Shown in pieces: positions 12,667-13,033 of a stretch of DNA of 15,828 nucleotides. How positions within the stretch are numbered: the first letter of the stretch is position 1; each line of letters begins with the position of its first letter. The translations under genes and the position numbers were made by a program. The notes under the pieces were generated by a model that did not search any database, was not told the origin of the DNA, and saw only the letters and a program-made list of their open reading frames with translations. Source of the stretch: a virus (taxonomy: Duplodnaviria > Heunggongvirae > Uroviricota > Caudoviricetes); the IMG/VR virus record IMGVR_UViG_2700989170_000009; one strand, 5' to 3'.

Positions 12667-13033
12667 TCAGTACATCAAGCCCGTTGATTTATATTCTCTC
12701 GTGGAAAGTAAGAAAAAAGCCGCTCTAATAAGTTCTGGCATTGACGAAAGCGCATCAGCCGCATCATCAGGAACGCCGGAAAATTCCTGTTTCAGGGAAT
12801 TAAAACGATCATCACGCATAACCCCCCCCATTTTCACAATCGGCAACAAGAATATTTTTAGCGTCATTCAGTGACCGCGTTGCGATGTATCGGATACATT
12901 CCAGGGCGAACTGTGTCCGGTCTTTCTGTTCTTCTCCCTGCGCAAGCTCTGCCGTGCATTCAATATCAATAAGCGCGTGCATCAGCGTAGTGAGTGCGGC
13001 GGCTGCTGCGTTCGGTGTGGTTTTATTGTGCAT
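12667..13033 (-). pseudogene. Small gene split by a frameshift inside a G8 homopolymer (C8 on plus, 12822-12829); one fewer G gives a continuous 121-aa ORF
   Basis: N-terminal part (ATG 13033, GGGGGA Shine-Dalgarno) ends ...CENGGGYA*; the downstream frame continues ...GGVMRDDRFNSLKQ... to a stop at 12667. The two frames meet exactly in the homopolymer. Confidence 0.45.

What the first reader, a model, noticed from the sequence alone, without database searches (positions are those of the whole stretch)
12822..12829. G8 homopolymer splits a small gene into two frames
Eight consecutive G (minus strand) sit exactly where the ORF starting at 13033 stops (...CENGGGYA*) and a second frame continues (...GGVMRDDRF...) to 12667. 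Removing one G gives one 121-aa protein. Homopolymers of this length are classic sites of sequencing error, but also of slipped-strand phase variation, which would make this an on/off switchable island gene.
Basis: seen in the sequence. Interest (0 to 1): 0.45.

Follow-up and report, generated by a model that had tools for sequence, protein, structure and literature searches.

The report
Variable poly-G joint between two genes
The run of eight G is real and inherited, and it sits at the junction of two small overlapping genes of a phage-satellite island; its length drifts between strains (G6 to G11), so the two genes are sometimes fused, which makes it a mildly interesting mutational hot spot and not an assembly error or a proven on/off switch.

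Summary
G8 lies at 12822-12829 on the minus strand. ORF A (13033-12812) ends ...CENGGGYA*, and ORF B runs on to 12667.

G8 does not break a gene. B has its own ATG (12819-12817), which overlaps A's stop as ATGCGTGA, and the G run sits where B's Shine-Dalgarno site would be. In other elements A and B are separate genes with this same boundary.

The window is a Shigella flexneri-type capsid-forming PICI. Its exact G8 allele appears in 12,672 index blocks of public assemblies, so it is not an assembly error.

Across E. coli and Shigella the tract is polymorphic. Over unique haplotypes the counts are G7 20, G8 45, G9 25, G10 5 and G11 2. Identical flanks often carry different lengths. G7 and G10 give fused 144-155-aa proteins. 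In-frame lengths are not enriched (26% against 33% expected). Both halves show the same purifying selection whether split or fused.

The intact fusion would be 144 aa, not 121.

Most likely this is a slippage-prone joint between two coupled genes, with fusion tolerated. Adaptive phase variation is not shown.

The parts
12822..12829 (-). G8 homopolymer. It encodes the Gly-Gly-Gly tail of ORF A and lies 2 nt upstream of ORF B's ATG, in a Shine-Dalgarno-like position.
   Evidence: Length is polymorphic (G6-G11) in homologues.
12812..13033 (-). ORF A, 73 aa (MHNKTTPN...ADCENGGGYA*). It matches phrog_5146 (stand-alone A family) and the N-terminal half of phrog_2512 (fused family). Function unknown.
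   Evidence: The exact protein is in 12,672 index blocks. pN/pS is 0.29-0.48.
12812..12819 (-). ATGCGTGA start/stop overlap: the ATG of B and the TGA of A. The same type of junction is seen where B follows an unrelated gene.
   Evidence: In Nissle 1917 the two CDS overlap by the same 8 nt.
12667..12819 (-). ORF B, truncated to 50 aa (MRDDRFNSLKQEF...STGLMY*). Intact homologues are 73-77 aa (phrog_24341).
12680..12682 (-). Second homopolymer indel: GGG here, GGGG in L001, L002 and L004, which encode full-length B. It shifts B out of frame 23 codons before its normal end.
   Evidence: It is inherited in the Shigella-type lineage.
12599..12679 (-). Remnant of B's C-terminal coding sequence (LDVLNIAADYADFVTEVILRKTTDGD*), now in the frame of ORF A and untranslated.
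   Evidence: compared with L001 and L003.
13023..13223 (-). Icd-like gene immediately upstream. It overlaps A's start by 11 nt. A G5 run at 13040-13044 precedes A's ATG.
   Evidence: NF033153, 6e-18.
12364..12597 (-). Next gene of the operon (77 aa, phrog_2196), preceded by GGGG at 12604-12607.
12059..12358 (-). DUF4222 gene (operon context).
10314..12062 (-). D5_N/DUF5906 primase-helicase, the replication gene of the island (context).
14036..14224 (-). alpA-family regulator (context). Coordinates were mapped from L005, which is 100% identical to the window.
14599..15828 (-). Tyrosine integrase at the island end (context).

Best explanation
The G8 tract is the joint between two small, separately translatable genes, A (73 aa) and B. 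Both belong to the early operon of a capsid-forming PICI-type satellite island: alpA ... icd-like, A, B, C, DUF4222, primase.

In the G8 state A stops at TGA inside the sequence ATGCGTGA, and B starts at the ATG of that same octamer. The G run doubles as A's Gly-Gly-Gly tail and as a Shine-Dalgarno-like element for B. Because it is a long homopolymer it slips during replication, so related islands carry G6 to G11. Lengths of 7 or 10 remove A's stop and join A and B through a Gly-Gly(-Gly)-Val linker into one 144-155-aa protein. Lengths of 8, 9 or 11 leave two proteins.

Both arrangements appear to be tolerated. The likely reason, which is an inference, is that A and B act together whether or not they are tethered. 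Tract length therefore drifts around a mode of 8.

This window is Shigella flexneri-type. Here the tract is in the modal unfused state, and B is separately damaged by a 1-nt deletion (G4 to G3). The island's capsid gene also carries a nonsense codon, so B's truncation may be part of wider decay.

Shown: the anatomy, the polymorphism, its heritability, the independence of the modules and the equal sequence constraint. Inferred: that the G run serves as B's ribosome-binding site, that translation is coupled, that A and B interact, and that fusion is near-neutral.
For: Anatomy.

Independent modules:
- In E. coli RM6927 an A-type gene (74 aa) and a B-type gene (77 aa) are separated by an unrelated 121-aa gene. 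B uses the same ATG, preceded by caGGGGGGtaaac, and overlaps the upstream stop as ATGCGTGA.
- 27 IMG/VR loci show this arrangement.
- PHROGs holds separate families for A alone, B alone and the fusion.
- Among 1.84 billion representative proteins, only 2 of 55 hits are full-length fusions. About 15 stand-alone B proteins start exactly at profile position 72, the Met of MRDD.

Not an error:
- The exact 73-aa A is in 12,672 index blocks, including the finished genome CP000036.
- The window is 99.98-100% identical to independent Shigella assemblies that carry G8 plus GGG.
- The G8 allele matches exactly in Nissle 1917, ATCC 25922 and NCTC86. In Nissle 1917 the pair is annotated as two ordinary CDS that overlap by 8 nt.

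Polymorphism:
- E. coli complete genomes hold roughly 350 G7, 175 G8, 165 G9 and 12-20 G10.
- IMG/VR loci: G7 23, G8 34, G9 18, G10 4, G11 2. Metagenome loci: G7 10, G8 27, G9 12, G10 2.
- Unique haplotypes: 20, 45, 25, 5 and 2 for G7 to G11. The in-frame share is 26%, against 33% expected (p=0.13).
- 9 of 21 haplotypes with several members and identical flanks of 220 nt on each side carry more than one tract length.

Constraint: pN/pS is 0.29-0.48 for A and for B, alike in split and fused alleles. A and B remain open in split alleles. Interrupted tracts (GGGGGTGG, GGGGTGGG, GGGGAGGGGGG) all fall in the G8 frame class.
Against: No expression data exist. B's independent initiation and its coupling to A are read from the sequence only. 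With G7-G10 followed by TT, the distance from the G run to the ATG is short for a canonical ribosome-binding site.

The fused form is very common (about half of complete E. coli genomes, although O157:H7 is oversampled) and occurs on many diverged backgrounds. It could therefore be the preferred functional form.

The function of A and B is unknown: there are no Pfam, NCBIfam, PADLOC or PDB hits, and the AlphaFold2 model is poor (pLDDT 54).

Some length differences between copies with identical flanks may be sequencing errors in 454, PacBio or nanopore assemblies.
Confidence: 0.68

Rival explanations
1. This is a true contingency (phase-variable) locus. Slippage of the poly-G tract is selected because it switches the island between two functionally different states, a fused A-B protein and separate A and B (or loss of B). 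That would diversify the satellite's behaviour within a clonal population.
For: The tract has the length of classical slipped-strand switches. Length differs between copies with identical flanks of 220-400 nt. All lengths from G7 to G10 are common in finished genomes. Both halves stay intact and under constraint in out-of-frame alleles, which frequent reversible switching would also produce.
Against: In-frame lengths are not enriched or depleted, and the distribution is a smooth single peak at G8. Within one near-clonal background G8 dominates: 12,672 blocks against 421 for G9 and 83 for G7, so switching is slow at the level of isolates. B keeps its own start, so nothing is clearly switched off. 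Interrupted tracts that cannot slip exist. From general knowledge, mismatch-repair-proficient E. coli and Shigella are not known for fast homopolymer switching.
Confidence: 0.15
2. The fused 144-155-aa protein is the only functional form. G8 and G9 alleles, including this window, are frameshift null alleles of a dispensable accessory gene, that is, pseudogenes in the making.
For: Fused proteins occur on many diverged A and B backgrounds with a conserved junction, CENGG(G)VMRDD. NCBI's PGAP pipeline labels one G9 allele 'frameshifted'. This window's island is decaying: B is truncated and the capsid gene has a nonsense codon.
Against: G8 is the modal state over unique haplotypes. pN/pS is no higher in split alleles, and other disabling mutations are rare. 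Diverged homologues are mostly stand-alone A or B with the same boundary. The G8 state reproduces the ATGCGTGA junction that B uses behind an unrelated gene.
Confidence: 0.1
3. The fused protein is made from G8 or G9 templates by recoding, either ribosomal frameshifting on GGG GGG GG or transcriptional slippage on the G run. On this view the DNA frame is irrelevant.
For: Runs of identical codons allow tRNA re-pairing, and a G-rich Shine-Dalgarno-like run can stimulate frameshifting (general knowledge from prfB and dnaX). All frames are tolerated in nature.
Against: G8 would need a +1 shift and G9 a -1 shift, so there is no single conserved mechanism. No significant downstream structure is present (z = -0.42). 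Interrupted tracts in the split frame exist. Stand-alone homologues show that the fusion is not required.
Confidence: 0.05
4. The G8 is a plain sequencing or assembly error in this draft, and the true sequence is G7.
For: The window is a scaffolded draft with three N runs. Both differences from the intact fusion are homopolymer indels, the typical error type of 454, Ion Torrent and nanopore data. G7 versions of the same background exist, partly in 454-era drafts.
Against: Identical G8 plus GGG alleles occur in many independent assemblies, including complete genomes. L159 (S. flexneri SFBU1023) is 99.98% identical and L005 is 100% identical over 6 kb. The exact protein is in 12,672 index blocks.
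Confidence: 0.02

Closest known systems
Poly-G contingency genes of Campylobacter jejuni, Neisseria and Haemophilus, where an intragenic G tract merges or splits adjacent ORFs (for example cj0031/cj0032). This comparison rests on my own knowledge and was not tested here.
   Same: A homopolymeric G tract of 7-11 lies inside coding sequence. Length changes by slipped-strand mispairing decide whether one long ORF or two short ORFs are read. Length differs between closely related strains.
   Different: In those systems the out-of-frame state is a null (OFF) state, switching is fast, and in Campylobacter mismatch repair is absent. Here the downstream ORF has its own ATG and a G-rich leader, and both halves exist as stand-alone genes elsewhere. 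In-frame states are not enriched, and the tract is about 96% stable within the S. flexneri-type background.
Translationally coupled overlapping gene pairs in phage and satellite operons (start/stop overlaps such as ATGA or ATGnnTGA).
   Same: The window has an 8-nt ATGCGTGA overlap, with a G-rich run in the 3' end of the upstream gene. G-rich runs also precede genes A, C and the primase gene in the window. The same ATGCGTGA overlap occurs at B's start and at C's start in RM6927.
   Different: The ribosome-binding-like element is itself a long, unstable homopolymer. A 1-nt change therefore converts the coupled pair into a gene fusion.
Capsid-forming PICIs (prototype EcCIEDL933; bioRxiv 10.1101/2022.09.08.507074).
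   Same: The island has int, alpA, a primase or rep gene and a full HK97-type head and packaging module (terminase, portal, protease, capsid, connectors) in about 14 kb next to phoQ. The O157:H7 homologue carries the fused G7 allele.
   Different: That paper does not discuss these small genes or the tract. The copy in this window has a nonsense codon in its capsid gene and a truncated B.
Rosetta-stone gene fusions, meaning proteins that are separate in some genomes and fused in others (general concept).
   Same: A and B are found separate, adjacent and overlapping, or fused, which suggests they work together.
   Different: Here fusion and fission recur repeatedly within one species through a single hypermutable site, rather than arising from a rare ancient event.

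Membership tests
Homopolymeric-tract phase-variable (contingency) locus | Mononucleotide tract of about 7 nt or more within the reading frame | tested here: met
   G8 at 12822-12829, inside ORF A.
Homopolymeric-tract phase-variable (contingency) locus | Tract length differs among closely related strains | tested here: met
   9 of 21 haplotypes with identical flanks carry more than one length. On the same A background the counts are 12,672 blocks for G8, 421 for G9 and 83 for G7.
Homopolymeric-tract phase-variable (contingency) locus | A length change turns production of a functional product on or off | tested here: not met
   B keeps its own ATG and G-rich leader at every length. Stand-alone A and B homologues exist. 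In-frame lengths are not enriched. pN/pS is equal in split and fused alleles. This is sequence-level evidence only.
Homopolymeric-tract phase-variable (contingency) locus | High-frequency, reversible switching within a clonal population | not testable with these tools
   This needs reads or single-colony amplicons. Indirectly, about 96% of assemblies with the window's A background carry G8, which suggests slow switching.
Translationally coupled overlapping gene pair | The downstream start codon overlaps the upstream stop codon | tested here: met
   ATGCGTGA at 12819-12812. There is an 8-nt CDS overlap in the Nissle 1917 RefSeq annotation.
Translationally coupled overlapping gene pair | Both ORFs are real, independent genes | tested here: met
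   They are separate genes in RM6927 and in 27 IMG/VR loci. PHROGs has separate families for each. Purifying selection acts on both.
Translationally coupled overlapping gene pair | Translation of the downstream gene depends on, or is aided by, the upstream gene | not testable with these tools
   This requires reporter fusions.
Frameshift artefact or unique pseudogene | The indel is confined to this assembly, or the gene shows relaxed constraint | tested here: not met
   The allele is shared by many independent assemblies, and constraint is not relaxed. The separate GGG site at 12680-12682 does truncate B and is a true lineage-specific frameshift.
Programmed recoding site (ribosomal frameshift or transcriptional slippage) | A conserved frame relationship plus a stimulatory element | tested here: not met
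   All three frame relationships occur naturally. There is no significant downstream structure and no Rfam hit.
Capsid-forming PICI (context of the gene) | int, alpA, a rep or primase gene, and the island's own capsid, portal, protease, terminase and connector genes, in about 15 kb | tested here: met
   Mobilisation by a helper phage was not tested, and the capsid gene here carries a nonsense codon.

The most novel reading that the evidence does not exclude
The poly-G joint is a selected contingency switch in E. coli and Shigella phage satellites. It would reversibly tether or untether two small early-operon proteins, and the fused and split forms would have different activities towards the helper phage or the host. 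That would make it a fusion/fission phase switch, a mode not described for PICIs and rare in mismatch-repair-proficient enterobacteria.
Probability: 0.12. Interest if true: 0.6.

Novelty: new member of a known kind. Interest (0 to 1): 0.3.

Why it matters
There is a practical point for annotation. NCBI's PGAP pipeline calls the same locus two hypothetical genes in one genome, one fused gene in another and a 'frameshifted' pseudogene in a third. The G8 state should not be corrected or flagged as an error.

Biologically, this is a clear natural case of recurrent gene fusion and fission at a single hypermutable site in a widespread family of phage satellites. About 650 of 5,426 complete E. coli genomes carry the A-B junction. 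It implies that the two uncharacterised early-operon proteins work together. If the fused and split forms turned out to differ in function, it would be an unusual homopolymer switch for E. coli and Shigella. As it stands, the evidence favours tolerated drift.

Tried and rejected
- AlphaFold2 on the fused protein with a 41-sequence alignment gave pLDDT 54. That is too poor for fold searching, so none was run.
- Pfam, NCBIfam, PADLOC and PDB sequence searches gave nothing for A, B or the fusion.
- tblastn against GenBank phage records found no match.
- The search for related loci on one-genome-per-species contigs confirmed only one locus, S. flexneri SFBU1023. It helped with provenance but not with cross-species comparison.
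- I tried to test for nucleotide-level conservation of the tract against four-fold degenerate sites. I rejected the test because the loci had been selected with a pattern that requires G6. In the less biased scan, 8 of about 61 A-B junctions have interrupted tracts, which is similar to neutral site diversity, so I make no claim of special conservation.
- The second protein search, with ORF A alone, returned cluster representatives only and did not give allele counts. Exact look-ups did.
- Literature searches found no mention of this tract or these genes.
- As a control, the G7 run at 5249-5255 showed no length variation in 10 related loci. The sample is small.

Full report
**1. The observation**

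On the minus strand the window reads ...GATTGTGAAAAT GGGGGGGG TT ATGCGTGATGATCG... The eight G occupy 12829-12822. This is the only G/C run of 8 or more in the window. The ORF that starts at ATG 13033 ends ...ADCENGGGYA* at 12812 (73 aa). A second frame reads ...GGVMRDDRF... and stops at 12667. Removing one G gives a 121-aa ORF. The description is therefore accurate. A G8 run on its own is not improbable: 57 of 200 dinucleotide-preserving shuffles contain one.

First, the second frame has its own ATG at 12819-12817. A's stop and B's start share the octamer ATGCGTGA, which is the layout of translationally coupled genes, and the G run lies just upstream, where a Shine-Dalgarno element would be. 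Second, there is another homopolymer difference. The window has CAACGGGCTTGATG (GGG at 12682-12680), where L001, L002 and L004 have GGGG; L003 is diverged at that site, and all four encode a full-length B. This ends ORF B at 50 aa instead of 73-77. The lost C-terminus (LDVLNIAADYADFVTEVILRKTTDGD*) can still be read in the other frame down to 12599. The intact fused protein would be 144 aa, not 121.

**2. Context and provenance**

The window runs from phoQ (1-1461) through an island to an integrase (14599-15828). The island encodes terminase, HNH, head-tail connectors, portal, HK97 protease and major capsid. It also encodes a primase-helicase (D5_N/DUF5906, 10314-12062), DUF4222, three or four small ORFs, an Icd-like gene and alpA. 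This is the make-up of a capsid-forming PICI as described for EcCIEDL933 (10.1101/2022.09.08.507074).

No complete E. coli genome holds the same island; the best match is 96% identity over 90% of the query. The window is 100% identical over 6,017 nt to an assembly found by exact protein look-up (L005). It is 99.98% identical to Shigella flexneri SFBU1023 (L159). The window therefore comes from a Shigella flexneri-type genome. It is a scaffolded draft with three N runs.

**3. Not an assembly error**

The exact 73-aa ORF A, including its ...GGGYA tail, is listed in 12,672 index blocks of public assemblies. These include finished genomes such as CP000036. The exact truncated 50-aa B is in 126 blocks. 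Eleven independently assembled loci carry the same combination of G8 plus GGG at the second site.

In E. coli complete genomes the G8 allele matches exactly in Nissle 1917, ATCC 25922, NCTC86 and many other strains. RefSeq annotates the Nissle 1917 pair as two ordinary CDS overlapping by 8 nt.

**4. The two halves are independent modules**

In E. coli RM6927 (L004) an A-type gene (74 aa, MCNKTTP...HHA*) and a B-type gene (77 aa, MRDDRFNSLKQEF...) are separated by an unrelated 121-aa gene. B uses the same ATG, is preceded by caGGGGGGtaaac, and overlaps the upstream stop in ATGCGTGA. Twenty-seven IMG/VR loci show this arrangement.

PHROGs has three separate families: A alone (phrog_5146, 74 aa), B alone (phrog_24341, 77 aa) and the fusion (phrog_2512, 154 aa).

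A profile search of 1.84 billion representative proteins found only 55 relatives. Two are full-length fusions. Most of the rest are stand-alone A proteins or stand-alone B proteins. The B proteins start exactly at profile position 72, the Met of MRDD. Examples are MLDDRFNSLK..., MYDDRFTMLK... and MNSKRLNALK....

**5. The tract is nevertheless hypervariable**

I ran exact 53-56-nt queries against 5,426 complete E. coli genomes. After subtracting the roughly 240 records that match only the B gene, the counts are approximately:

| Tract | Complete genomes |
|---|---|
| G7 | about 350 |
| G8 | about 175 |
| G9 | about 165 |
| G10 | 12-20 |

. O157:H7 carries G7, giving one 154-aa gene. Strain 042 carries G10, giving one 155-aa gene. 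O26, O103 and O111 strains carry G9.

Pattern scans gave these counts:

| Source | G7 | G8 | G9 | G10 | G11 |
|---|---|---|---|---|---|
| IMG/VR loci | 23 | 34 | 18 | 4 | 2 |
| Metagenome loci | 10 | 27 | 12 | 2 | 0 |

I then counted each flanking haplotype once and left out loci found through the window's own alleles. The distribution is G7 20, G8 45, G9 25, G10 5 and G11 2. It is a smooth single peak at G8. In-frame lengths make up 26%, which is not different from the 33% expected with no frame preference (p=0.13).

Nine of 21 haplotypes that have several members and identical flanks of 220 nt on each side carry more than one tract length. Three still do with flanks of 400 nt. The tract therefore changes far faster than the surrounding sequence.

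On the window's own A background the index lists 12,672 blocks for G8, 421 for G9 and 83 for G7. Single contigs carry G6, G10 or G11. Slippage is thus recurrent but slow at the level of isolates, and part of the minority may be sequencing error.

**6. Selection**

A and B remain open in split alleles. The only frequent truncation of B is the 50-aa Shigella-type allele. Pairwise pN/pS is 0.29-0.48 for A and for B, with no difference between split and fused alleles. Interrupted tracts that can no longer slip easily (GGGGGTGG, GGGGTGGG, GGGGAGGGGGG) all sit in the G8 frame class. That is only three independent types, so the support is weak.

Fused proteins occur on many mosaic combinations of A and B variants, with a conserved junction CENGG(G)VMRDD. 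Both states therefore look viable. Nothing indicates that the reading frame across the tract is under selection.

**7. Mechanism proposed**

A and B are co-expressed from the early operon. No promoter-like or terminator-like site lies at the A-B junction itself on the coding strand; the nearest is a weak promoter-like match at 12453-12425, inside gene C. G-rich runs precede most genes of the operon:
- GGGGG before A, at 13040-13044
- G8 before B
- GGGG before C, at 12604-12607
- GGGG before the primase gene

In the G8 state, ribosomes finishing A at TGA can reinitiate at the overlapping ATG. In G9, A runs on for 7 more codons. In G7 and G10, A and B are joined by a short Gly-rich linker, which the low-confidence AlphaFold2 model shows as coil between helical segments. 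Because natural fusions usually mark interacting partners, A and B probably act as a complex. That would explain why tethering them is tolerated and the tract is free to drift. These steps are inference; no expression or interaction data exist.

The function of A and B remains unknown. There are no Pfam, NCBIfam, PADLOC or PDB hits, and no hit in GenBank phage records.

In this particular window B lacks its last 23 residues. The island's major capsid gene also carries TGA in place of Trp at 8143-8145. This copy may therefore be degenerating, which would fit the gene decay generally reported for Shigella (general knowledge, not tested here).

**8. Rivals**

- Adaptive phase variation, meaning fused and split states with different activities, is not excluded. 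It is not favoured, given the frame-neutral length distribution, the independent start of B and the stability within the S. flexneri-type background.
- 'Fusion is the only functional form and G8/G9 alleles are nulls' conflicts with the mode at G8, the equal constraint and the stand-alone homologues.
- Recoding (frameshifting or transcriptional slippage) lacks a conserved frame relationship and a stimulatory structure (z = -0.42; no Rfam hit).
- Plain assembly error is excluded for practical purposes by the many independent identical assemblies.

**9. Comparison and novelty**

The closest known kind is the intragenic homopolymer tract that merges or splits ORFs in contingency genes of Campylobacter, Neisseria and Haemophilus (my own knowledge, not tested here). 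This locus meets the tract and polymorphism criteria. It fails the ON/OFF criterion at sequence level, and the switching rate cannot be tested with these tools.

In the G8 state it works like an ordinary translationally coupled gene pair whose ribosome-binding-like element happens to be an unstable homopolymer. I found no description of it in the literature searched.

I rate it a new member of a known kind, of modest interest. It is mainly useful as an annotation caveat and as a hint that two uncharacterised PICI proteins function together.

Noticed in passing
window 8143-8145 (minus strand), within the major capsid gene, roughly 7813-8970: There is an in-frame premature stop (TGA) where the E. 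coli RM6927 homologue (385 aa) has Trp (TGG). The island's major capsid gene is therefore a pseudogene in this copy, so this capsid-forming PICI probably cannot build its own capsids.
   Followed up: partly
window 5249-5255 (minus strand): A second G run (G7, GATGTGGGGGGGTACTGATG) lies at the 3' end of the head-tail connector gene, just upstream of the HNH gene's ATG (5243). Ten related loci read GGGGGTG there, with the same length and no length polymorphism.
   Followed up: partly
window 4553-4595, 5607-5723, 7235-7324: Three runs of N (43, 117 and 90 nt) show that the window comes from a scaffolded draft. They interrupt the small terminase, head-closure and protease/portal regions, so the integrity of those genes cannot be judged.
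   Followed up: no
window 13232-13978 (minus strand) and 13353-13532 (plus strand): A 248-aa ORF with no family hit is called as a gene in many assemblies. It overlaps, on the opposite strand, a 59-aa Arc-like repressor ORF (phrog_228). PGAP annotates the equivalent region of relatives as an incomplete icd-like pseudogene. Which of the two is real was not resolved.
   Followed up: no
proteins P0001, P0003, P0020, P0023, P0031 (217-221 aa); L004 13639-13869: In some assemblies (P0031 is on 52 contigs) the gene upstream of A (MSQEITLQQAAE..., 76 aa) is also fused in frame to A-B, giving proteins of 217-221 aa. A second junction of this operon is therefore prone to fusion. The DNA cause was not examined.
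   Followed up: no
L008, L013 and L015 (Shigella copies of the island), between gene C and the DUF4222 gene: IS1 insertions occur in some otherwise near-identical copies of the island. This is further evidence of decay of the element in Shigella.
   Followed up: no
alignment A1; P0218: Variants of the A module (two main types differing by a 6-residue indel) and of the B module (C-termini ...RKTTDGD versus ...RRKFPEDVSHA) are shuffled in all combinations around the conserved junction. One representative (P0218, 167 aa) fuses an unrelated upstream gene directly to B. The junction behaves as a recombination and fusion hot spot.
   Followed up: partly
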